Virus record (IMG/VR): IMGVR_UViG_3300033434_000393
Location: 1-53,289 of that record
DNA from: a virus
Lineage: Duplodnaviria > Caudoviricetes
Strand: one strand, 5' to 3'
Length of the DNA: 53,289 nt
Both the position numbers and the translations under genes were made by a program. Of this stretch, positions 1-53,054 are shown piece by piece (position 1 is the stretch's first letter; each line of letters opens with the position of its first letter). Below the pieces are notes generated by a model. That model did no database searches. It saw only the letters and a list, made by a program, of their open reading frames with translations, and was not told the DNA's origin.

Positions 1-1296
1 ATGGCAACTTTTAAAGCAACAATTTTTACAGGTGGCAAGCATATTAAGCAGGATGGCACTACTAATATTAAAATCCGTATTTATCACAATGGAGTACCTC
101 AGTATATAGCTACTCAATATTATATAAACCCTGAATACATGGGGAGTGACGGTACTATACTTCCGGTAACTGATAGCTGTGAAGAACTTAACTTTGAACT
201 AGGTAATCTTATACAGCAGTTTAGAGGCTCTTGTATCAAATTAGGAACTGATAGAACCCGTAAAATGAGCTGTAAGGAGTTAAAAGAGCAAATAGAAAAA
301 ACGGCAAATCCAGATTCAGAAGATATTGATTTTGTGGCGTTTGCGAGAGGAATTATTTCAAAAACGGTTAAAAGAAAGACGGCAAATTGGTATGAATCTT
401 CTCTGAACGCTTTAATTAATTTTCTTGGAAAAGAGAAAATTGACGTAAGAGATATAAAAAATAAGACATTGGAGGGGATGATGGAGTATCTGTATGCCAA
501 GAAAATAGGGAAGAATACAGATCGCACCATTGAACCTGGTACAATCAACAATTATCTGCGTGGTATTCGTTCCCTATATAACAAGGCCAAAAAAGAATAT
601 AATAATGAAGACTACGATATTATAAAGATGCCAAATAATCCATTCTCCAGAATAACCATCCCAGACTACACCCGTAAACGAAAGAATCTAAGCGTAGAGG
701 ATATAGTTAAAATACGGGATTCCAACTTTGATCGGGAACGAACCAATATGTCGCGCGATGTCTTTATGATGTTGTTCTATCTGATGGGTATGAATATGAA
801 TGATTTCTTTTCCTTGGCCAAGGAATCATACGGAAGGGTTGTGTATGAGCGTAGCAAAGTTACGACCGTGGATAATAAGAGTCGGTTCCCTTTGTCTATA
901 AGAATAGAGCCTGAACTAAGAAAGTTGGTAGATAAGTATAGCAATGGAACATTTCTCTCTTATTTCCGCATGAGATACTCTGATCCGAATAACTTTCTCA
1001 AGGCGGTGAATAGGGAATTGAAGGAAATATCCCAAGAGCTTAATCTTGGGGTTCCTCTATCTACTAACTGGGCACGGCATTCATGGGCGAGTATAGCACG
1101 TAACAAAGCCCGGATTGCAAAAGCAGACGTTGACTTTTGCCTTGGGCATGTGAACAATGATTATAAAATGGCGGATATTTATATTGATATTGATTATTCC
1201 GTCTGTGATCGTGCTAATAGGGCAACTTTAGACCTACTAAAAAGCACATCAGAAAAAAAAGAAGAAAAAAAAGAGCTTTTTTGTTTGCAGGAATAA
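1..1296 (+). CDS. int: Tyrosine integrase (Bacteroidetes arm-binding + SAM-like + catalytic domains)
   Basis: N-terminal IKIRIYH arm domain, TINNYLRGIRSLYN, ARHSWAS, LGH and C-terminal catalytic Tyr (ADIY). Confidence 0.92.
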   Translation: MATFKATIFTGGKHIKQDGTTNIKIRIYHNGVPQYIATQYYINPEYMGSDGTILPVTDSCEELNFELGNLIQQFRGSCIKLGTDRTRKMSCKELKEQIEKTANPDSEDIDFVAFARGIISKTVKRKTANWYESSLNALINFLGKEKIDVRDIKNKTLEGMMEYLYAKKIGKNTDRTIEPGTINNYLRGIRSLYNKAKKEYNNEDYDIIKMPNNPFSRITIPDYTRKRKNLSVEDIVKIRDSNFDRERTNMSRDVFMMLFYLMGMNMNDFFSLAKESYGRVVYERSKVTTVDNKSRFPLSIRIEPELRKLVDKYSNGTFLSYFRMRYSDPNNFLKAVNRELKEISQELNLGVPLSTNWARHSWASIARNKARIAKADVDFCLGHVNNDYKMADIYIDIDYSVCDRANRATLDLLKSTSEKKEEKKELFCLQE

Positions 1297-1314
1297 AAAG
1301 ACTCTTTATATTTG
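1284..1314 (+). promoter_or_regulatory. Bacteroidetes primary-sigma promoter for the replication operon leader
   Basis: TTTG (1284-1287), 19-nt spacer, TATATTTG (1307-1314): canonical -33/-7 arrangement. Confidence 0.85.
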
Positions 1315-1332
1315 CAGCCGTAAGGGACTTGA

Positions 1333-1362
1333 GCTGACTTCGTAATGAAGCCAGCCTTTTTT
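1333..1362 (+). terminator. Weak terminator/attenuator hairpin in the leader
   Basis: GCTG-A-CTTC/GTAAT/GAAG-C-CAGC followed by C and T6; one internal A-C mismatch on the + strand. Confidence 0.6.
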
Positions 1363-1417
1363 GTTTGTATACTACTTAAACGCATATTTCTATGCTATGT
1401 GCCTAACAAATTCGGTT

Positions 1418-2272
1418 ATGGCACTACAAAATTTAAAAAAAGTAAATGAGCAGCAAAGGCTTGAAAGCCTGAGTTCCGAACAAGCATACAAGGAGTTCTC
1501 CGGTATGTTTGAAAAGATGGCGTATCAATATAGCCCCTCCGAGGTCTTTCTTGATTTCATCGACTACTCTCTTATTATGTTCAGATGGTGGGAGAAAAAG
1601 AACGGTTTTTCAAGCCTCGAAAAAAAATATGGCGATAGATATTCCATGTTTCAAGAACTATTCACGCTTTATTCTATTGCGGCAGATAATGATGGCATAG
1701 GAATGCATGATGCGCTTGGCGATCTCTTCATGGATTTGGTTAGTCACGGCAATAACGGTCAGTTTTTCACTCCGGAAGAAGTGTGTGATATGAGCGCCGA
1801 TATAATTATCCAAGATTCAAAGGCCAAAGGAAATATTCTGGATCCTGCGTGTGGCAGTGGCCGCCTACTTCTATCTGCCGCCAAAAAGAATAGAGAGTTT
1901 CGTTTATACGGTTGCGATATTGATCAGACTTGCTGCAAGATGGCCGTTCTCAACCTTCTTTCTAATTCCCTACAAGGAGAGATAGCTTGTATGGACTCGT
2001 TAAGAATGGAATATAACTATTCTTGGAAAGTTGGGTATAATCATATCGTTGGCCTTCCTTGCCCCCTCCCTGTTTATGAATACATTACTGACAAAGAGAA
2101 ATCGACTCTTTGGAAACTTCACATTAACTCATTTGCACAGAATAATGCTGAACCGCCTAAAGCAGTTCCGGCAGAAATCGTTGTGCCTACTCCTCAGATA
2201 GCAATACCGGTACCAACTACAAGAAGCCGGGCTAGAAATAAATCAAACGAATTGCAACTAGAACTATTTTAA
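1418..2272 (+). CDS. HsdM/N6-MTase-like SAM-binding protein lacking motif IV, with C-terminal clamp-binding motif
   Basis: GQFFTP and LDPACGSG motifs; no NPPF/Y; ends QLELF; ATG at 1418 preferred over TTG at 1361, which lies in the T tract. Confidence 0.75.
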   Translation: MALQNLKKVNEQQRLESLSSEQAYKEFSGMFEKMAYQYSPSEVFLDFIDYSLIMFRWWEKKNGFSSLEKKYGDRYSMFQELFTLYSIAADNDGIGMHDALGDLFMDLVSHGNNGQFFTPEEVCDMSADIIIQDSKAKGNILDPACGSGRLLLSAAKKNREFRLYGCDIDQTCCKMAVLNLLSNSLQGEIACMDSLRMEYNYSWKVGYNHIVGLPCPLPVYEYITDKEKSTLWKLHINSFAQNNAEPPKAVPAEIVVPTPQIAIPVPTTRSRARNKSNELQLELF

Positions 2273-2282
2273 AATCAAAGTT

Positions 2283-3404
2283 ATGAAAATTACAGTATCA
2301 AAATCAGAGCTTTTCACTAAGCTATCCACAATTGGGAGAATAATCAATTCCAAAAATTTTCTTCCGGCTTATGATAACTTTATGTTCGTCATTGACGAAG
2401 ACGGGATTCTTAAAGTTACTGCCGGAGAAGAAGGCGGCCGGTTATCTGCAAACATTGAATGTGAAACTGACTGTGCGTGTCTATCCATGTTGATTGATGC
2501 AAAAACGATCTTGGAAGGCCTTAGGGAGATTTCTGAACAACCGATTTCAATAGGGATCGTTGACTTGGAAACAAATTACGGTATCAGTGTACATTATTCG
2601 AATGGACGCTTTGAACTGGTCGGAAAAAAAGCAGATGAATATCCGGCAATGGAAATTAAGAATTCTGAACCTTGTTTCTCTCTTGACGCAGAAAGCTTTT
2701 TAAATGGAATACGTCAGGTGCAAATCTGTTGTGCGAATGATGAGTTGCGCCCTATCATGAATGGAGTGTTCATCGAAAAAACATCTGATAGAATCACTTA
2801 TGTAGCGACTGATGGCCACAGTCTGGGGATGATCGATTCAGCATACGATTCAAAAGAACGTTCATCCTTTATCTTGCATGCCCGTATGTCCAAGATCTTA
2901 TCTAAGATAATACCAGCGACCGCGAGCTCGGTTATCATAACTGTAGGAGCCGGCAGTGTAAATATCGAATTTGGAGGTTATACTATGATTTGCCGATTGG
3001 TAGAGGGACGTTTTCCTAATTACCGTGCCGTTATCCCTTTGGACAATGATAGGATAGCCCGGTTTGAAAAAAACGAGATGATTTCAGCTTTAAAGAGGGT
3101 ATCTGTTTTCAGTAGCTTATGCACTTCTCTCATTGTTCTGAAATTCGATAAAGACAATGTTGTAACTATCACCGGACGTGATATCGACTTTTCCACGTCA
3201 GCAGAAGAAAAAGTCTCTGTCTCCTATTCAGGATCTCCTATTGAAATCGGTTTTAAGAGTTCTATTCTAATTGATCTATTGTCTAATATTCCATCCGATG
3301 AAGTAATAATGAGTATGAAGCATCCGACAAAGGCTACTATCATTAATCGTACTGATAATAATGATCTCACTTACCTAATCATGCCATTAGTCATCAATAA
3401 TTAA
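2283..3404 (+). CDS. dnaN: Phage-encoded DNA polymerase III beta sliding clamp
   Basis: 373 aa; ELRPIMNGV, VATDGHSL, RLVEGRFPNY, LIMPL motifs. Confidence 0.93.
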   Translation: MKITVSKSELFTKLSTIGRIINSKNFLPAYDNFMFVIDEDGILKVTAGEEGGRLSANIECETDCACLSMLIDAKTILEGLREISEQPISIGIVDLETNYGISVHYSNGRFELVGKKADEYPAMEIKNSEPCFSLDAESFLNGIRQVQICCANDELRPIMNGVFIEKTSDRITYVATDGHSLGMIDSAYDSKERSSFILHARMSKILSKIIPATASSVIITVGAGSVNIEFGGYTMICRLVEGRFPNYRAVIPLDNDRIARFEKNEMISALKRVSVFSSLCTSLIVLKFDKDNVVTITGRDIDFSTSAEEKVSVSYSGSPIEIGFKSSILIDLLSNIPSDEVIMSMKHPTKATIINRTDNNDLTYLIMPLVINN

Positions 3405-6015: not shown

Positions 6016-6801
6016 ATGGATGGATATACATTAACGGAGAAGATGAGAAAAGCACGTAGAAGTTTCAGGTTTACCGCAGTCGAACAAGCCCTTTTCTATG
6101 AACTAGTGGCTATTTGTAATGGCGAGGACTGGAGGGACATCTTTGATTGCTCGAACATTGAACTCTGTTGTGCACTAAGCATCAGTGAAAAGACTTTAGT
6201 TAAAGCCAGGGAAACATTGATTAATGCGGGATTATTCTACTATAAATCGGGTAAGAGTAAAAGAGCTGTTTGTTCTTACTCCTTTATAAAACCGCTTAGA
6301 ACTACCGGAAATATTCCGGTAGATAGTATAACCGATGAGGGAGCCAATAGTACAGCCAATAAGGGAGCCAATAGTACAGCCAATCCTTCAGACTATATTA
6401 AAACTAAAACAAAAACAAAAAATTCTCTCTCCCCCACGCGTGCGCGAGAAGGTCATGCCGCTGGAGATTTATTCCCGGATAGTGATGTATTTGAAAAATC
6501 GCTAGAGGAATGTTTCGATGAGCTAAGAGCAAATCAAAGCTGGAAAGAAACCTTTTGCATGAACATTCGGATACGAGATAAAACTTTTATGCCGGCTGAT
6601 TTTGACCAGTACTTGCAGAGCTTCTTCCGTAAGCTTGCTAACGAGGGCGAGACTAAAAAAGCGCCCAAAGACGCTATGAGCCACTTCGCACGATGGCTGG
6701 ATATTGAACTTAAAAACAAAAAAGATGGAAAAACAAATCAAAAAGGATCCGATACAGCTAGTGGGGAACCTGTTAAAGTCCGCTCGATCAGCATCCCATG
6801 A
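6016..6801 (+). CDS. Replication initiator (lambda O-like, N-terminal wHTH)
   Basis: HTH-like N-terminus, internal iteron repeats, directly upstream of a DnaC-like ATPase. Confidence 0.75.
   Translation: MDGYTLTEKMRKARRSFRFTAVEQALFYELVAICNGEDWRDIFDCSNIELCCALSISEKTLVKARETLINAGLFYYKSGKSKRAVCSYSFIKPLRTTGNIPVDSITDEGANSTANKGANSTANPSDYIKTKTKTKNSLSPTRAREGHAAGDLFPDSDVFEKSLEECFDELRANQSWKETFCMNIRIRDKTFMPADFDQYLQSFFRKLANEGETKKAPKDAMSHFARWLDIELKNKKDGKTNQKGSDTASGEPVKVRSISIP
6303..6430. repeat. Probable replication origin: palindrome, iterons and A-rich tract
   Basis: Inverted repeat TACCGGAA/TTCCGGTA at 6303-6321; 23-nt repeat at 6338-6360 and 6362-6384 giving four AGCCAAT at 12-nt period; A-rich tract about 6397-6422. 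Confidence 0.7.
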
Positions 6802-7420
6802 GGAATACACTCCGGAGCAGCTGAAAAAGATACGCCAAGATCAGACGGATAAGTTCCTGTTGGCTTGCCAGAAAGAATGCCCCTCCTTCTCAGTCAGCGA
6901 CATGAACCGGAATCTGATAAATGAAATATTCCTGTATGCCAACGGACGAAGTCAGGTTTTTGATTCCGCTAAAGGTCTTTGGCTGTATGGCCCTGTGGGT
7001 ACCGGGAAATCAACGATTATTCAGATTTTGCGTACTTATGATTTTCTTTCAAAATTAGACGATATCGGGTGGAAATCTTCCGGAGGTTTTGGCATTGTAT
7101 CCGCTTCTATGGTGTCTAACCAATTCGCTCGTAAAGGGCTTGATGGCATTGATCGGTACGCCTACAACAATGGCAAACCTGAAACATGGGCTTTCGATGA
7201 AGTTGGTCGGGAACCAAAGCCGACGAAGTACTTTGGCACGGAAATGAACGTGATGCAGTTCGTCTTTCAAACTCGGTATGAGTTCAGGTGCAAATGCTTG
7301 ACGCATGTAACCACTAACATGTCTCCGGAAGATATTACGCCCAAATACGGTGATTATATCGCCGACAGGGTGAATGAGATGTTTAATGTTGTCGAGATAA
7401 AGGGAGAAAGCAGAAGATAA
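6725..7420 (+). CDS. DnaC/IstB-like helicase-loader ATPase
   Basis: Walker A GPVGTGKST, Walker B FDEVG, TTN, YGDYIADRVNEMF. Confidence 0.85.
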   Translation: MEKQIKKDPIQLVGNLLKSARSASHEEYTPEQLKKIRQDQTDKFLLACQKECPSFSVSDMNRNLINEIFLYANGRSQVFDSAKGLWLYGPVGTGKSTIIQILRTYDFLSKLDDIGWKSSGGFGIVSASMVSNQFARKGLDGIDRYAYNNGKPETWAFDEVGREPKPTKYFGTEMNVMQFVFQTRYEFRCKCLTHVTTNMSPEDITPKYGDYIADRVNEMFNVVEIKGESRR

Positions 7421-7496
7421 AACAAAGGCGGCCTGTACACCACTACAAACCGCCCGTTATAAGCCATAAAGCCTATTCAAACACACCACAAATATA
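7419..7496 (-). ncRNA. Putative antisense sRNA (about 65 nt, plus its -7 box) upstream of the sigma-like gene
   Basis: Minus-strand TATATTTG at 7496-7489; 11-bp hairpin GGCGGUUUGUA/UACAGGCCGCC (G-U pairs only on the minus strand) followed by UUUGUUUU. Confidence 0.65.
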
Positions 7497-7514
7497 AGAA
7501 AAACTTTATGACTT

Positions 7515-8078
7515 ATGGTAAGTGCTGCGGTAAATAATTACATAGGGAAAAGATATGATCGATGGTTGGATTATGCATCATACCATTGCGGAATCGTAGG
7601 TATTCCGGATGAGGCTAACGATGTGCTGAATGAAGTATTATACTCACTATTGCAGAAGAGTGACAAGCTGCTCGAACGATTGCTCTCAACGAAAAAGAAC
7701 GGTTATACAGAGCTTGACTTCTTTGTGCTGAGAATGATTAAGCTTAATGCTACTTCGCCCACGTCTCCATATCAGAGTAAGTACAAGCGTATTCCTTCGG
7801 ATGATAACGTGGACTATACAGCGATTGAGATTGAAGATGCTCAGGAAGATGATACTGATATTTCGGGAATAGTTTTGGAAAGGATGCACCAGCTTCGTGA
7901 TGTATTTGAAAGCCTTGATCTATCCCCTCTTGCAAAGCGAGTGTTTGAGTTCCATTTCTTTCAAGATAGTAACTTTTCCGATTGGGATGGTGAGGAAACT
8001 CCGAAGCAATTGTACGAGATATACAATAAAGTGCAATCCTTGATCAAGAGGAAGTTGTCGGGGGAGTTTATCTTTTGA
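7515..8078 (+). CDS. ECF-sigma-like late transcription regulator
   Basis: Region-2-like ANDVLNEV and region-4-like LSPLAKRVFEF; sits between replication and packaging modules. Confidence 0.7.
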   Translation: MVSAAVNNYIGKRYDRWLDYASYHCGIVGIPDEANDVLNEVLYSLLQKSDKLLERLLSTKKNGYTELDFFVLRMIKLNATSPTSPYQSKYKRIPSDDNVDYTAIEIEDAQEDDTDISGIVLERMHQLRDVFESLDLSPLAKRVFEFHFFQDSNFSDWDGEETPKQLYEIYNKVQSLIKRKLSGEFIF

Positions 8079-8234
8079 TGGTGGTTCATGTGGTGCAACA
8101 GATAGCGCAACTAGTAGTCTTTGTTGATGAATTGATTGTTAAGATGAACGTATTCTTTTTAATAAAACAGTTAATAATGAGCTTATTTGATGTAAAAGAG
8201 GTGCAAATAAGAACACTGTATATAATTTATATGT

Positions 8235-8242
8235 TATATTTG
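8235..8242 (+). promoter_or_regulatory. -7 promoter element for the TA moron
   Basis: TATATTTG ending about 31 nt before the ATG at 8274. Confidence 0.6.
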
Positions 8243-8273
8243 TATACTAATTAATTATAATAGAAAATAAGTC

Positions 8274-8708
8274 ATGGCATACAGTGTTTTAGATGTAGCT
8301 AATAAAATATTGGCATATGGGGCAGAACGTGATGGAGGGGAGTTGATATCAAATCTTAAACTTCAAAAGTTGTTGTATTATATGCAAGGCTTTTATTTAG
8401 CTTATTTCCATGAGTCTCTCTTTGATGAAGAAATTGAAGCTTGGCAATATGGCCCAGTAGTTCCAGTTGTGTACGAACATTACAAGGATAATGGAAGTGC
8501 TGGAATTTCGCCGAGTGGTCAATCTCTAATTTTCAATTTGCCAAAAGAAGAAACTTTGTTTAATGAGGTCTTTAGAGTTTATGGTGATTATTCTGCAATT
8601 GGTTTGATGAATCTTACGCATAGTGAAATGCCTTGGAAATCGACAAAAATAGGAGATGTTATAGAAAAACAGAAGCTAAATTCTTTTTTTGGGAAAAGAC
8701 TTAAATAA
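8274..8708 (+). CDS. Panacea/SocA (DUF4065) antitoxin
   Basis: ISNLKLQKLLYY, IEAWQYGPVV and THSEMPW motifs. Confidence 0.9.
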   Translation: MAYSVLDVANKILAYGAERDGGELISNLKLQKLLYYMQGFYLAYFHESLFDEEIEAWQYGPVVPVVYEHYKDNGSAGISPSGQSLIFNLPKEETLFNEVFRVYGDYSAIGLMNLTHSEMPWKSTKIGDVIEKQKLNSFFGKRLK

Positions 8709-9140
8709 ATGGCGAAAAAAAAAGAAAAAAAAATTGCTATAAAACCTTTGCAAAATAATACTAAATGTTTAGATAAAAAAGGTTTGGATAGTATTGAATA
8801 TCCTCTATTTTGCTTTCAATATCTTCAAGATGATTCTATCAAGAAATGTAGAGATAGTGAATTCCTTTATAACTTTTTAATGAGATTGAAGAAGTTATCT
8901 GAAATAGGATGGAAAGAAATTTATATATCTCCAAAACATTCATTTGGAACAGAAAAGATCCCTGTTAAACAAATAAAACCTCAATTGCCACCTTCTATAA
9001 CCCCTGATATTACAGAATTAACGGTTTTTAGAGCTAGTGGAGATAACAGACCATTTTTGGGTTTTCGAACAGAAAATGTTTTCCACGTTGTTTTTATAGA
9101 AGCTGCCATTAACGATATCTATGATCATGGGTCAAAGTAG
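8709..9140 (+). CDS. Putative toxin of the Panacea pair (RelE-like/MAG6450-like)
   Basis: Abuts the antitoxin; FCFQYL...LSEIGW...GTEKIP...FR...GFR..NVFHVVFI pattern. Confidence 0.6.
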   Translation: MAKKKEKKIAIKPLQNNTKCLDKKGLDSIEYPLFCFQYLQDDSIKKCRDSEFLYNFLMRLKKLSEIGWKEIYISPKHSFGTEKIPVKQIKPQLPPSITPDITELTVFRASGDNRPFLGFRTENVFHVVFIEAAINDIYDHGSK

Positions 9141-9260
9141 CGAAGTTGGGCTAAAATATAATTATCTGTAACGAAATATAGATATATTCATCATTATTAG
9201 TGCCCTTATCGGCATGTCCCGACATACTGCACTTTAAAACGTATAAAAAAAGCCTTCCTT

Positions 9261-9271
9261 TTTATATTTTA
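9261..9271 (+). promoter_or_regulatory. Putative late promoter, copy 1
   Basis: TTTATATTTTA starting 23 nt before ATG 9284. Confidence 0.65.
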
Positions 9272-9283
9272 CGATAAAAAGGC

Positions 9284-10693
9284 ATGGAAGATATAAAGCT
9301 GGATCCAAAGAACTTTCGCATTCATAACGACCGGAACAAAAATATTATTCGTAAGAGTCTAGAAGATTGTGGTGCCGGTCGTTCTGTACTGATAGATAAA
9401 GAAAATTACCTGATAGCCGGCAACGGCGTCTACGAAGAAGCAAAGTCATTAGGTATACCGGTACGAGTTATTGAAACTAACGGGAAAGAATTAGTTGTTG
9501 TAAAACGTACAGACCTCTCCCTTGACGATAATCGGCGTAAACTCCTCGCACTTGCAGATAACCATGCTTCCGATACTTCCGAATTTGATATGAACTTGGT
9601 TATAGAGAATTTCTCTGAAGACATATTAAAAGATTGGGAGTTCTCTTTAGATGATATTGACTTCGGAGATGAATTACCCGCTTCCACATCAAAACCGAAT
9701 AATCTTGCTGAAAGATTTATCATTCCTCCTTTTTCCATCCTGGATACAAAACTGGGAAGATGGCAGGAGCGCAAACGAGATTGGCTATCTCTAGGAATCA
9801 AAAGTGAAGAGGGACGAGATAAAGAAATTACCTACTCACACTCGGCCCAAAATCCTGCTATTTATGAAGTACGCAACAGAATGCGTGAAAAGCTTGGTTA
9901 TGATCCGTCCTGGGATGAAATAACAGAGTATTGCCAAAAGCACAATATCTCCATGCTGGATGGCACGTCTGTCTTCGATCCTGTTCTTTGCGAGCTTGCC
10001 TACCGTTGGTTTAATATTTCTGAAGGGATTGTTCTTGATCCTTTTGCCGGTGGTTCCGTACGTGGTATCGTTGCCTCTAAATTGAGATATTGCTATAGAG
10101 GCGTTGATCTTCGTGCTGAGCAGGTTGAGGCGAACTATAAAAATGCTAAGGAAGTATTGCAACATAAATTAGGCTATTCTCCAATAGACCCGGCATGGAG
10201 ATGTGGTGACAGTTGCGATGTGGATAAACATTTTGAAGGATTGAAAGCTGATTTGATCTTTAGTTGCCCGCCTTATGCTGACCTCGAGGTTTATTCAGAC
10301 GATCCGAAAGATCTGTCAAATATGAACTATGGAGATTTTCTTACTGCGTATCGGAAGATCATTCTAAAAAGCTGTGCTATGCTTCGTGATAATCGTTTCG
10401 CCATATTTGTAGTTGGTGAAGTACGAGCAAAGAATGGAGCATATTATAATTTCGTCGGTGATACGATAAGTGCCTTCATAGAAGCGGGGTTACATTATTA
10501 CGATGAAATGATACTAGCTACTCAGATAGGCTCTTTAGCTATGCGTGCAGGCAATCAATTCAACCATTCCCGGAAGATAGGAAAGACGCACCAGAATGTT
10601 CTTGTGTTCTTCAAAGGAGATATGAAACAGATTCCTTCATTATACCCAGAGCTTGATTTACGTGAAGAAGATTTAATTGGAGAAGATATTTAA
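9284..10693 (+). CDS. ParB-like N-terminal domain fused to an amino-DNA methyltransferase
   Basis: IAGNG...LADN ParB-like region; DPFAGGS (motif I) and SCPPY (motif IV). Confidence 0.85.
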   Translation: MEDIKLDPKNFRIHNDRNKNIIRKSLEDCGAGRSVLIDKENYLIAGNGVYEEAKSLGIPVRVIETNGKELVVVKRTDLSLDDNRRKLLALADNHASDTSEFDMNLVIENFSEDILKDWEFSLDDIDFGDELPASTSKPNNLAERFIIPPFSILDTKLGRWQERKRDWLSLGIKSEEGRDKEITYSHSAQNPAIYEVRNRMREKLGYDPSWDEITEYCQKHNISMLDGTSVFDPVLCELAYRWFNISEGIVLDPFAGGSVRGIVASKLRYCYRGVDLRAEQVEANYKNAKEVLQHKLGYSPIDPAWRCGDSCDVDKHFEGLKADLIFSCPPYADLEVYSDDPKDLSNMNYGDFLTAYRKIILKSCAMLRDNRFAIFVVGEVRAKNGAYYNFVGDTISAFIEAGLHYYDEMILATQIGSLAMRAGNQFNHSRKIGKTHQNVLVFFKGDMKQIPSLYPELDLREEDLIGEDI

Positions 10694-24880: not shown

Positions 24881-25060
24881 GATAAAAGAAAGGCTATCTC
24901 CTCCCTTATTCCGACCAAGGAAACATAACATACTTAACTTTGAGAGGTTATGCAGTAAAGGGACTTGATAGCCTATATTGTATGTACAACATGAGCGTAA
25001 CAACTCCTCTCAAAAGTAAATATGTATTGTTTCCCTTGGTCTTGGAATACCGCAAAGGTA
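24881..25060 (-). ncRNA. Structured leader/antisense-type RNA with its promoter
   Basis: TACCTTTG at 25060-25053; about 41-bp imperfect stem (25049-25006 with 24947-24907); loop element 24974-24958 can pair with 24907-24891, which is followed by a U tract. Confidence 0.7.
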
Positions 25061-48438: not shown

Positions 48439-48474
48439 ACTTTATATGATTAAATTCTATCAAAATTGATATTG

Positions 48475-48552
48475 TGGAGAGTGGCGGAATCGAACCGCCG
48501 CCCGGCTGTCTTGACTGTGCGCACCGCTGCTCATCCACTGAGCTAACTCCCC
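48475..48552 (-). tRNA. tRNA-like RNA with non-canonical anticodon arm (no identity assignable)
   Basis: Acceptor GGGGAGT/ACTCTCC, D arm GCTC/GAGC, T arm GGCGG-TTCGATT-CCGCC; the 28-nt central region does not form a 5-bp/7-nt anticodon arm; no encoded CCA. Confidence 0.7.
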
Positions 48553-52272: not shown

Positions 52273-52572
52273 TTATGATTGAATAAGCTGTTGTATGATA
52301 TTGTCTGGAACCTTATTATGAATGTCGAGCATTGAAGCTGCAGTTTCTAGTTCGGAGCGCTTGACGTAATATCGTCCTCTTTCCTTATTTTTTGCCGGAT
52401 AGAATTTGATCCATGCTTTGTCGCGCCATTCTTTTACGAGGCGTTTGCCATACATTTTTTCCGCTTGTGATATTGTTATCACTTCCGGTAGTAGTCCAAG
52501 AGATTTCAATGTTTGGATCGTTCCAATCTTGATGCTCTCTGCAATAATCTTTTCTAAATAATTTTTCTCCAT
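52273..52572 (-). CDS. Excisionase-like DNA-binding protein
   Basis: ISQAEKMYGKRLVKEW...YYVKRSEL wHTH pattern. Confidence 0.6.
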   Translation of the reverse strand: MEKNYLEKIIAESIKIGTIQTLKSLGLLPEVITISQAEKMYGKRLVKEWRDKAWIKFYPAKNKERGRYYVKRSELETAASMLDIHNKVPDNIIQQLIQS

Positions 52573-52616
52573 ATCTTTGAATTTGTTTTTTAGGCTGTTT
52601 CTTTCGTGAGCTTTAT

Positions 52617-52678
52617 AGGGACTTGAGCTATTGTTAATACTACTTGATACGCATGTACATCGCTATGCTATGCTGCCT
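52617..52678. repeat. Patchwork copy of the 1323-1404 leader
   Basis: AGGGACTTGAGCT, TTGTT, ATACTACTT, ACGCAT and CTATGCTATG(C)TGCCT occur in the same order in both. Confidence 0.85.
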
Positions 52679-52691
52679 GTTATTTTTGATT

Positions 52692-53054
52692 TTAGAATTC
52701 ATATTCAGAGACTTCCTCAATTCTGTATCTCCTTACCCGTGCTCTTTTCGCATACTGAAAGTTTTGATCAATTGTAATTTGAAGAGAGATGAGAGCCAGA
52801 AAAGAAAGAGCGATTATTGATTTCTGCAATTGTTTGAAATCAATATTTAGAGCAAAAGCTCTATTTAGCCACCAAGATCCAAGTTCATTGAGTTTGCTTG
52901 TTCCTGTCTTTTTGTATGCATTATCGAGTTGGACATTAATCGTTCCGTATGCAGTGCCTAAACGATCAGCCATCTCTTTTTTTGCAAGACCGCATGCTGC
53001 TAAACCTGCGATCTGATTTTCACGCTTAGTGAGCAGGTTCGCTTTCAATTCCAT
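52692..53054 (-). CDS. LuxR-type HTH regulator
   Basis: LTKRENQIAGLAACGLAKKEMADRL...TINVQLDNAYKKTG. Confidence 0.8.
   Translation of the reverse strand: MELKANLLTKRENQIAGLAACGLAKKEMADRLGTAYGTINVQLDNAYKKTGTSKLNELGSWWLNRAFALNIDFKQLQKSIIALSFLALISLQITIDQNFQYAKRARVRRYRIEEVSEYEF

What the first reader, a model, noticed from the sequence alone, without database searches (positions are those of the whole stretch)
1320..1424. Candidate trans RNA-RNA switch: the replication-operon leader is complementary to a spacer of the early operon 51 kb away
Seen: the + strand leader after the 1307 promoter has a weak hairpin plus U6 (1333-1362). A second hairpin, GTGCCTAAC/GTTATGGCAC (1399-1424), buries the ATG at 1418. 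The luxR-xis spacer (52617-52678) repeats five leader blocks in order: AGGGACTTGAGCT (13/13), TTGTT, ATACTACTT, ACGCAT and CTATGCTATG-TGCCT. It omits the rest of the attenuator hairpin. That spacer lies in a minus-strand operon, so its RNA is antisense to the leader. Its blocks overlap the 5' arm of the attenuator (GCU) and the 5' arm of the start-codon hairpin. Inference: the early lytic transcript could act as a trans antiterminator and translation activator, coupling two separated modules without a protein. I know of no description of this for Bacteroidota phages. Alternatives are a shared protein operator, a + strand sRNA from the TATCTTTG box at 52572, or a minus-strand role for the hairpin (its A-C mismatches are G-U pairs on that strand).
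Basis: partly seen in the sequence, partly recalled or inferred. Interest (0 to 1): 0.9.

Follow-up and report, generated by a model that had tools for sequence, protein, structure and literature searches.

The report
Three-copy RNA seed in Bacteroides prophages
A short sequence at the very start of this gut-bacterial prophage's replication-gene leader recurs in the early-gene spacer and beside the integrase gene, and it changes together at all three places in related prophages, which points to an untested RNA-to-RNA switch between the phage's modules.

Summary
The repeat is real and matters well beyond this window. The leader after the integrase gene has a host-type promoter, a 13-nt single-stranded 5' "seed", a terminator hairpin and a hairpin over the start codon. 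The luxR-xis spacer is a paralogue of this leader that keeps the seed and both 5' arms but lacks both 3' arms and the U-tract.

A third copy (seed plus terminator) lies outside the window, between the attL tRNA and the integrase gene. In 29 related Bacteroidales prophages the seed differs between lineages (nine classes). Within a genome it is the same, or nearly so, in the leader, spacer and tRNA-side copies.

The excisionase-like protein next to the spacer does not track the seed class. Leader-spacer identity starts 5-8 nt after the -7 box in 20 of 28 genomes, which is about where transcription should start.

This favours RNA-RNA pairing (about 0.55) over a shared protein site (about 0.25). 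Which RNA regulates which is open. No strand-specific wobble signal was found, and no usable expression data exist. The "51 kb" separation is about 5 kb across attP on the circular phage genome.

An earlier AI note of this scan (e1-3753263) reports an integrase-side small RNA matching an excisionase-like gene in other gut phages.

The parts
1284..1314 (+). Host-type promoter of the leader: TTTG (1284-1287) and TATATTTG (1307-1314)
   Evidence: Sequence. A TAnnTTTG box lies within 330 nt after the integrase stop in 92 of 95 related loci. The consensus itself is recalled, not tested here.
1323..1335 (+). Seed (block 1) AGGGACTTGAGCT. It is predicted to be the 5' end of the leader RNA, and its last bases GCT start the terminator stem.
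   Evidence: It matches 52617-52629 at 13/13. Leader-spacer identity begins 5-8 nt after the -7 box in 20 of 28 genomes. The seed is lineage-specific and shared by all three copies.
1333..1362 (+). Terminator-like hairpin GCTGACTTC-GTAAT-GAAGCCAGC, then C and T6
   Evidence: Fold. 88 of 95 integrase loci have a hairpin plus T-run within 75 nt of the box. 7 of 12 and 7 of 16 stem pairs show compensatory changes, and the many U-G pairs fit the + strand only.
1361..1404 (+). Leader blocks 2-5, shared with the spacer: TTGTT, ATACTACTT, ACGCAT, CTATGCTATG, TGCCT
   Evidence: Alignment. Block 3 has genome-specific variants shared by leader and spacer.
1399..1424 (+). Hairpin that pairs the start codon (ATG 1418-1420) of the first operon gene. 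Its 5' arm lies in block 5.
   Evidence: Fold. The start codon is paired with p >= 0.5 in 36 of 43 distinct related leaders.
1418..2272 (+). First gene of the + strand operon, an N6_Mtase-like protein. dnaN follows at 2283-3404.
   Evidence: Pfam. In most relatives dnaN follows the leader directly.
1..1296 (+). Tyrosine integrase. The third copy (U) of the seed plus terminator lies about 150 nt upstream of its ATG, outside the window.
   Evidence: Pfam. U copy and tRNA-Val att site in L030. U and leader share an exact seed of >= 10 nt in 50 of 67 loci.
52573..52691 (-). luxR-xis intergenic spacer. As minus-strand RNA it is antisense to the leader. Blocks 1-5 lie at 52617-52678.
   Evidence: The element is conserved upstream of the xis-like gene in relatives. 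No minus-strand -7 box lies within 310 nt in 0 of 29 genomes. The RNA is predicted unstructured, z +0.7 to +1.2.
52273..52572 (-). 99-aa excisionase-like winged-helix protein gene, directly downstream of the spacer
   Evidence: HTH_17 at E 0.04, below the cut-off. AF2 model pLDDT 75.7. MerR/excisionase folds at Z 5.0-6.1.
52692..53054 (-). GerE/LuxR-type HTH gene upstream of the spacer
   Evidence: Pfam GerE, E 5.8e-7.

Best explanation
Three paralogous elements form one RNA-RNA pairing network.

Two of them are + strand 'seed plus terminator' units:
- U lies just after the attL tRNA and before int.
- L is the leader after int. It has its own host-type promoter and also a hairpin over the start codon of the replication/late operon.

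The third, S, sits in the 5' untranslated region of the excisionase-like gene, inside the minus-strand early operon. As RNA it is complementary to the seed, to the bottom of the terminator's 5' arm, and (for L) to the 5' arm of the start-codon hairpin. It has no 3' arms of its own.

Most likely mechanism: when the early operon is transcribed, S RNA pairs with nascent U and L transcripts. It takes the place of the 3' arms, so transcription reads through into int and into the replication/late operon, and the first start codon is freed.

Shown: the anatomy, its conservation and the co-variation. Inferred: transcription of S, termination at U and L, pairing in vivo and the direction of control.

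I put pairing of any kind at about 0.55, and this direction at about 0.35.
For: 1. Co-variation. Nine seed classes occur in 29 prophages, each shared by the copies of one genome. The longest common leader-spacer substring averages 13.6 nt, against 7.8 with the reverse-complemented spacer (direct longer in 26 of 29). For U-spacer the figures are 15.9 and 8.1 (21 of 21).
2. Specificity. Cognate seed duplexes average -24.5 kcal/mol, non-cognate -14.5 +/- 4.0, and the wrong strand -12.9.
3. The seed always abuts a + strand terminator in both U and L. This holds for 88 of 95 leaders; for U. Compensatory stem changes support the hairpin. GAGCU of the seed forms the bottom five stem pairs.
4. Leader-spacer identity starts 5-8 nt after the -7 box in 20 of 28 genomes. 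U-spacer identity runs 1-11 nt further 5' in 14 of 20. So only the transcribed part of L is constrained.
5. S keeps the 5' arm of the start hairpin better than the 3' arm in 26 of 29 genomes.
6. Cofold ddG has z -9.1 in the window and z -5.2 to -12.1 in 8 of 9 other prophages. The start hairpin is opened in these predictions.
7. The neighbouring winged-helix protein does not track the seed. Proteins of classes 1-4 are 68-81% identical, with a near-invariant central region, yet their seed 5' halves are unrelated. One class-5 seed goes with proteins only 55-76% identical.
8. A 1-nt bulge inside the seed is tolerated in G009.
9. S RNA is predicted unstructured.
Against: - No strand-specific wobble signature. 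The strict count gives 4 tolerated against 3 non-tolerated transitions.
- In the window and in 3 of 9 relatives, the opposite-strand pairing is more stable by more than 1 kcal/mol.
- G017/G444 share only the seed, and cofold is not significant there (z -0.4).
- Kinetics: the seed directly precedes the terminator. A trans RNA would have well under a second to bind unless the polymerase pauses (inference).
- In classes 1-4 only 3-5 stem pairs are covered by the spacer.
- There are no expression data for S, U or L.
- A second xis-like locus in G007 has an S-like element but no matching U or L.
- All three copies lie in one 5-6 kb module of the circular genome, so linkage helps keep them matched.
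Confidence: 0.35

Rival explanations
1. Same pairing, opposite direction. The short terminated RNAs are sibling small RNAs with a 5' seed. L is made from its own promoter, and U is the 3' trailer of the host tRNA in the integrated state. They mask or destabilise the 5' untranslated region of the excisionase-like gene and the early genes behind it, locking the prophage in. Both directions could act together as mutual titration.
For: - Promoter, a 13-18 nt single-stranded 5' seed, hairpin and U-tract is the usual small-RNA layout.
- U and L share the seed and stem base but differ in the upper stem and loop.
- S is always directly upstream of the xis-like gene, whatever gene precedes it.
- U-spacer identity reaches further towards the xis start.
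- An earlier AI note reports a comparable integrase-side RNA in other gut phages. This is a lead only.
Against: - The seed site lies roughly 22-45 nt upstream of the xis ATG (read), largely outside a ribosome footprint.
- It does not explain why S also keeps leader blocks 3' of the terminator, including the 5' arm of the start hairpin.
- No expression data exist.
Confidence: 0.2
2. The seed is a DNA (or + strand RNA) site for one phage protein that acts at all three places. Examples would be a multifunctional recombination directionality factor in the manner of P2 Cox, or a Q/AlpA-like antiterminator.
For: - A promoter followed at once by a terminator is the classic layout of protein antitermination (recalled).
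- U lies 30-50 nt from the att core, where directionality factors often bind.
- The gene next to S encodes a MerR/excisionase-like winged helix.
- No wobble asymmetry was seen.
Against: - The winged-helix protein does not track the seed class.
- The seed is a single asymmetric 13-20 nt sequence, without dyad or tandem boxes.
- Its 5' half is wholly replaced between lineages.
- No seed copy lies in the rest of the composite prophage, including the cI-cro region.
- The identity boundary at the transcription start, and the constant fusion to terminator stems, have no reason under this model.
- LuxR-like, Cro-like and CI-like proteins were not tested for co-variation.
Confidence: 0.25
3. The copies are relics of duplication or recombination junctions with no joint function. 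They are kept alike by linkage and gene conversion.
For: - The three copies lie within 5-6 kb on the circular map.
- The phage genomes are mosaic: a methylase gene is inserted right after ATGGCAC in the window.
Against: - The elements are kept across integrases down to 46% identity and xis-like proteins down to 33-40% identity.
- Identity is patchy, with sharp blocks separated by indels, not a smooth conversion tract.
- The loss of both 3' arms in S is selective.
Confidence: 0.08
4. The spacer copy is the leader of a + strand transcript running antisense through luxR/cro towards the repressor gene, in the manner of lambda PRE.
For: - The window has TATCTTTG at 52572-52579.
- Five class-2 records have TACTTTTG abutting the seed.
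- The CI-like gene lies on the + strand beyond the window end.
Against: A + strand -7 box is present in only 8 of 29 spacers, and at differing positions.
Confidence: 0.04

Closest known systems
Satellite phage P4 immunity: CI RNA pairing with seqA and seqC (passage in PMC4825925, which cites Sabbattini 1995 and Briani 2000; those papers were not read)
   Same: A phage regulatory RNA pairs with two complementary sites in phage transcripts and decides whether replication genes are transcribed past terminators.
   Different: P4's RNA causes termination and lies in the same operon as its targets. Here the partner lies in a divergent operon, pairing should prevent termination, and one target sits behind a host tRNA.
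P1/P7 c4 antisense RNA (recalled; Rfam scan of the window found no family)
   Same: Short complementary blocks co-vary between heteroimmune relatives and define specificity classes.
   Different: c4 blocks translation of icd/ant in cis-encoded mRNA. No terminator arms are involved, and no c4 model match was found here.
Gifsy-1 IsrK (PMC4825925; abstract and one passage read)
   Same: A leader yields a short terminated RNA and a read-through mRNA. The short RNA pairs in trans to open a ribosome-binding site upstream of an antiterminator gene.
   Different: IsrK acts on its own long isoform. Here the partner is a separate antisense-oriented paralogue, and there are two seed-bearing units.
Lambdoid PR'-tR' with Q, and its by-product small RNA StxS (PMC7547250, abstract in the listing only); P. 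aeruginosa AlpA (recalled)
   Same: A constitutive-looking promoter is followed at once by a terminator in front of a long operon, and early termination yields a small RNA.
   Different: Those systems use a DNA-loaded protein. Here no Q or AlpA family hit was found, and the co-varying element is not tracked by the neighbouring protein.
Antisense-RNA transcription attenuation of plasmids pT181/pIP501 (recalled)
   Same: A trans RNA decides between terminator and read-through in a nascent leader.
   Different: There the countertranscript comes from the same locus and induces termination.
Tn916 end-proximal insulator terminator with antitermination (PMC11658703, abstract in the listing only)
   Same: A terminator near the element's end shields it from host read-through, as U would behind the tRNA.
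   Different: How Tn916's antitermination works was not read (abstract in listing only); no trans partner like S is described in the abstract text seen.

Membership tests
Antisense-RNA-controlled transcription attenuation/antitermination | Two RNAs with extended complementarity, conserved through co-variation | tested here: met
   Nine seed classes are shared within genomes. Cofold z is -5.2 to -12.1 in 8 of 9 relatives, and -9.1 in the window.
Antisense-RNA-controlled transcription attenuation/antitermination | The target leader holds an intrinsic terminator whose arm overlaps the pairing site | tested here: met
   Hairpin plus T-run in 88 of 95 loci. Compensatory pairs. The seed covers 3-5 stem bases in classes 1-4 and 9-11 in classes 5-7.
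Antisense-RNA-controlled transcription attenuation/antitermination | Both RNAs are made, and pairing changes termination | not testable with these tools
   Only contigs of RNA runs were available, and none covered S, int or L.
Antisense-RNA-controlled transcription attenuation/antitermination | Strand-specific G-U tolerance in mismatches | tested here: inconclusive
   4 tolerated against 3 non-tolerated transitions. Strand preference of cofold energies is mixed.
Trans-acting small RNA with 5' seed and Rho-independent terminator (sibling sRNAs) | Own promoter, single-stranded conserved seed, terminator hairpin with U-tract | tested here: met
   L. U has the seed and terminator but no promoter of its own, since it lies behind the tRNA.
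Trans-acting small RNA with 5' seed and Rho-independent terminator (sibling sRNAs) | A stable short transcript is detected | not testable with these tools
   No raw reads were available.
Q/AlpA-type protein antitermination | An antiterminator protein of a known family is encoded | tested here: inconclusive
   Pfam and PHROGs gave no Q or AlpA family for the early proteins scanned. The 99-aa protein has only HTH_17 at E 0.04.
Q/AlpA-type protein antitermination | The binding element sits at the promoter of every regulated unit | tested here: not met
   U and S have no adjacent consensus promoter.
Multifunctional recombination directionality factor sites (Cox/Vis/Xis type) | Repeated boxes, with specificity tracked by the protein | tested here: not met
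   There is a single asymmetric seed per site. Protein identity does not follow the seed class. Only the xis-like protein was tested.
Any Rfam family (including c4 and phage RNA motifs) | A match at gathering score | tested here: not met
   0 matches in the whole window.
att site / arm-type sites | An identical core at both prophage ends | tested here: not met
   The true att repeat is the 50-nt tRNA-Val 3' end, elsewhere. The probable arm repeats CTTATAAC differ from the seed.

The most novel reading that the evidence does not exclude
A protein-independent switch in temperate Bacteroidales phages. A spacer inside the early mRNA would act as a trans anti-terminator and anti-sequestor RNA. It would open at once the insulator terminator behind the host tRNA (releasing int) and the attenuator and start-codon hairpin of the replication/late operon. 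In lysogens, the terminated seed RNAs, one of them made from the host tRNA promoter only when the phage is integrated, would in turn mask the excisionase-like gene. The freely drifting seed would define orthogonal specificity classes, in the way immunity groups do.
Probability: 0.25. Interest if true: 0.9.

Novelty: new variant of a known kind. Interest (0 to 1): 0.7.

Why it matters
Regulation of temperate Bacteroidales phages is almost unknown. This module is present in at least 88 of 95 integrase loci found here.

If the pairing is real, it would be a rare case of a trans RNA acting on intrinsic terminators. It would link excision, replication and late genes without a dedicated protein. It would also supply a set of natural orthogonal seed/target pairs usable as RNA parts in Bacteroides.

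Even if a protein reads the seed, the triad marks the control points of the phage: int, the replication operon and the xis-like gene.

My four full-text searches (listings only) showed no description of it. Subscription-journal papers and supplements were not searchable.

Tried and rejected
- Megablast of window 1-3000 against the phage collection found no match.
- The MAFFT global alignment of the two regions was misleading. A local alignment replaced it.
- The Smith-Waterman matrix with loose gaps and unconstrained RNAduplex on long stretches were too noisy to use.
- Rfam gave no family.
- att-site reading rejected: the real att repeat is the tRNA-Val 3' end.
- Wobble asymmetry is inconclusive. 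The strict count gives 4 (T,C) against 3 non-tolerated transitions. A looser hand count from the panels gave about 11 against 5, but it is not rule-based. Cofold of model against opposite strands is mixed.
- Sampling 400 further genomes of the order of G007 for the xis-like protein gave 0 of 400 at E <= 1e-10. The family is rare among species representatives.
- RNA runs offered only contigs. In X8 and X10, contigs cover 6498-9311 (from about 67 nt before the CI-like gene through the genes behind it) and the tRNA of the L130 stretch. There was no cover of the spacer, int or the leader. X13 and X3 gave long contigs that may be DNA. This is no evidence either way on S, U or L.
- A fourth seed-like site at 24957-24969 is not matched at an equivalent place in six relatives by a 10-mer scan.
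- The + strand box at 52572 is not conserved.
- A first automated arm test picked wrong start codons (after a script error). A version using the first ORF of >= 100 aa replaced it; there G007's start was still mis-assigned.
- PDB sequence searches gave nothing. Foldseek gave only weak rows.
- The second xis-like locus of G007 has no close integrase nearby and no matching seed elsewhere within one mismatch.
- Look-ups of earlier notes by sequence found nothing.
Full report
**What the window is.** The window is a whole virus record of 53,289 bases. It starts exactly at the ATG of a tyrosine integrase (1-1296, +). It ends exactly at the ATG of an 87-aa minus-strand gene, so it is a provirus cut at gene boundaries. 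A close relative of the prophage lies in a named record, L030 (integrase 99% identical; title given). There the 3' 50 nt of tRNA-Val occur about 200 nt left of the integrase ATG, with a second copy in the tandem tRNA-Val about 300 nt left. The same 50 nt occur again 2975 nt right of the window's end. That missing right part holds a CI-like XRE repressor divergent from the 87-aa gene. On the circular phage genome the spacer and the leader are therefore about 5.3 kb apart across attP, not 51 kb. In a permuted contig, L130, the distance is 6.2 kb.

**The observation.**
- The leader-spacer similarity scores 63, against 28.3 +/- 5.2 for shuffles. It is the leader's best non-self match in the window on either strand.
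- The spacer copy lacks a 12-nt piece holding the TTTG of the -7 box. It also lacks the 25 nt that make the loop, 3' arm and U-tract of the hairpin.

**The family.** I used the integrase as a probe.
- It gave 19 loci in species-representative genomes. An integrase alignment gave 158 viral contigs, of which 80 were kept.
- An integrase ORF was located in 95 of these 99 loci.
- 92 of the 95 have a TAnnTTTG box within 330 nt after the stop. 88 have a hairpin of -6 kcal/mol or better plus a T-run within 75 nt of that box, in 41 distinct sequences.
- RNAalifold on 13 and 14 distinct leaders finds compensatory changes in 7 of 16 and 7 of 12 stem pairs. It also finds many U-G pairs that would be A-C on the other strand. 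The hairpin therefore belongs to the + strand RNA, and the window's A-C mismatch is an outlier.
- The start codon of the first downstream gene is predicted paired (p >= 0.5) in 36 of 43 distinct leaders.
- The window's methylase gene is an insertion. In most relatives dnaN follows the leader directly, and the start context TTATGGCAC is kept.

**A third copy.** Between the attL tRNA (Val, Pro or Arg) and the integrase ATG, most of the 19 loci carry the same short sequence fused to another hairpin and T-run. Behind it lie direct repeats that look like arm-type sites. Of 67 loci with enough upstream DNA, 50 share an exact stretch of >= 10 nt between this copy (U) and the leader (L). In 8 more the shared stretch is interrupted by one base. 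U and L share only the seed and the stem base. Their upper stems and loops differ.

**Co-variation.** The xis-like gene lies 48-53 kb from the integrase, on the opposite strand, in 7 genomes on the same contig. It was also found in 17 long viral records where pairing was possible. With 5 genomes whose two ends lie on different contigs, this gives 29 leader/spacer pairs.
- The seed falls into nine classes. Examples are AGGGACTTGAGCT, AATGGTGTTGAGCTG, AAGACGA.GTAGAGCT, ATTAGTTGCGAGC, AAGCGAGTTGG and TTCGAGT.GGATTTTA.
- Each genome carries the same class in L and S, and in U where U is available.
- The longest common substrings average 13.6 nt (L-S) and 15.9 nt (U-S), against 7.8 and 8.1 for the reverse-complemented spacer. 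The direct value is larger in 26 of 29 and 21 of 21 cases.
- A 24-nt leader 5' end pairs with its own spacer RNA at -24.5 kcal/mol on average. Non-cognate spacers give -14.5 +/- 4.0, and the wrong strand gives -12.9.
- Later blocks co-vary too. Examples are ATACTACTT in both window copies, CCGAAAC in both G009 copies and CACTAC in both G432 copies.

**RNA or protein?** Several points speak for RNA.
- Leader-spacer identity begins 5-8 nt after the -7 box in 20 of 28 genomes. That is about the expected transcription start (the distance is recalled from the literature on Bacteroides promoters). U, which has no promoter to accommodate, matches the spacer 1-11 nt further 5' in 14 of 20.
- The seed is always fused to a terminator stem in U and L.
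- The spacer keeps the 5' arm of the start-codon hairpin better than the 3' arm in 26 of 29 genomes. Fifteen of these records belong to one seed class, so the independent count is roughly 14 of 16 lineages by my grouping.
- The spacer RNA is predicted less structured than shuffles.
- The seed has no dyad or tandem boxes, tolerates a 1-nt bulge, and is wholly replaced in its 5' half between lineages.
- The adjacent 99-aa protein has a MerR/excisionase-like fold only at modest scores. Across seed classes 1-4 it is 68-81% identical with a near-invariant centre. Proteins only 55-76% identical share one class-5 seed.
- A 10-mer scan of the composite prophage, which includes the cI-cro region, found no further copy except a partial one at 24957-24969.

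**Evidence against, or missing.**
- The one sequence test that could prove reading as RNA on these strands, an excess of G-U-compatible mismatches, is inconclusive (4 against 3).
- In the window itself the opposite-strand duplex is 5 kcal/mol more stable. Among nine relatives the preference is mixed, and one (G017) shows no significant cofold gain.
- A trans RNA would have very little time to catch a seed that directly precedes the terminator.
- The RNA data reachable here were assembled contigs that do not cover the elements.
- LuxR-like, Cro-like and CI-like proteins were not tested for co-variation.

**Mechanism.**
- I favour an RNA pairing network, at about 0.55.
Only this direction explains why the spacer keeps leader blocks beyond the terminator and both 5' arms. 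Cofold predictions agree with it: the lower terminator stem and the start hairpin open.
- The reverse direction has terminated U and L RNAs acting as sibling small RNAs that lock the xis-like gene (about 0.2). It fits the small-RNA-like anatomy and the fixed position of the spacer. It resembles an earlier AI note on other gut phages, which I treat as a lead only.
- A shared protein site stays at about 0.25.

**Comparison with known systems.** The nearest analogues are:
- P4 CI RNA (passage read).
- P1/P7 c4 (recalled).
- Gifsy-1 IsrK (abstract and passage).
- The PR'-tR' layout with its by-product small RNA (abstract in listing).

None has a divergent-operon paralogue that lacks the 3' arms, nor a second target behind a host tRNA. 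Four full-text searches listed no description of this module. That covers open-access text only, and supplements were closed.

Noticed in passing
outside the window: L030 2121-2500 (left of window position 1): Two tandem tRNA-Val(tac) genes lie here. The 50-nt att repeat is the 3' part of the tRNA, and the same 50 nt occur 2975 nt right of the window end. Between U and int lie the direct repeats CTTATAAC-N3-CTTATAAC (TTCTTTGAA-type in other lineages), which are probably arm-type integrase sites.
   Followed up: partly
window 24957-24969 (+): AAAGGGACTTGAT matches the leader seed at 11/11 (AAGGGACTTGA). A 10-mer scan of six relatives found no equivalent copy, so it may be chance (0.63 matches of the searched 11-mer at <= 1 mismatch expected by shuffles; 3 were seen, two of them the leader and spacer copies).
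   Followed up: partly
window 1415-1424 and 1-9: The integrase and the first operon gene share the start context TTATGGCA(A/C). Relatives keep TTATGGCAC although the gene behind it is dnaN instead of the methylase. The methylase gene was therefore inserted just after the first codons.
   Followed up: partly
window 52585-52598 (minus-strand reading AGAAACAGCCTAA): The box AAACAGCC, 17-25 nt upstream of the xis-like start, is invariant in 7 of the 8 spacers aligned (AAACAG in all 8). A related AACAG occurs in distant lineages. Its role is unknown.
   Followed up: no
L056-L060 spacers (distant lineages): The minus-strand spacer RNA holds a small hairpin with loop AGCG. Its stem co-varies (GCCAA/TTGGC, CGCAA/TTGCG, GGCAA/TTGCT, CTGCA/TGCAG). 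The leader lacks it.
   Followed up: no
L130 6498-9311: In two RNA runs of a cultured organism (X8, X10), contigs start at the same base, about 67 nt before the CI-like S24-peptidase repressor gene, and run through the genes behind it towards the tRNA. This looks like the lysogenic transcript.
   Followed up: partly
G007:C3:391140-391480 (L061, L188): A second xis-like gene in the same host genome has an S-like element with a different seed (GGTATGTTGAGCT) and its own minus-strand TATATTTG box. No matching U or L, and no close integrase, was found.
   Followed up: partly
window 48474-48552 (-): ARAGORN calls a tRNA-like gene with an undetermined anticodon in the early operon.
   Followed up: no
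L107, L120, L123, L154 and similar loci: Single T/C polymorphisms inside the class-2 seed differ between U and L of one prophage. Their spacers were not on the contigs, so they could not be used for the wobble test.
   Followed up: no
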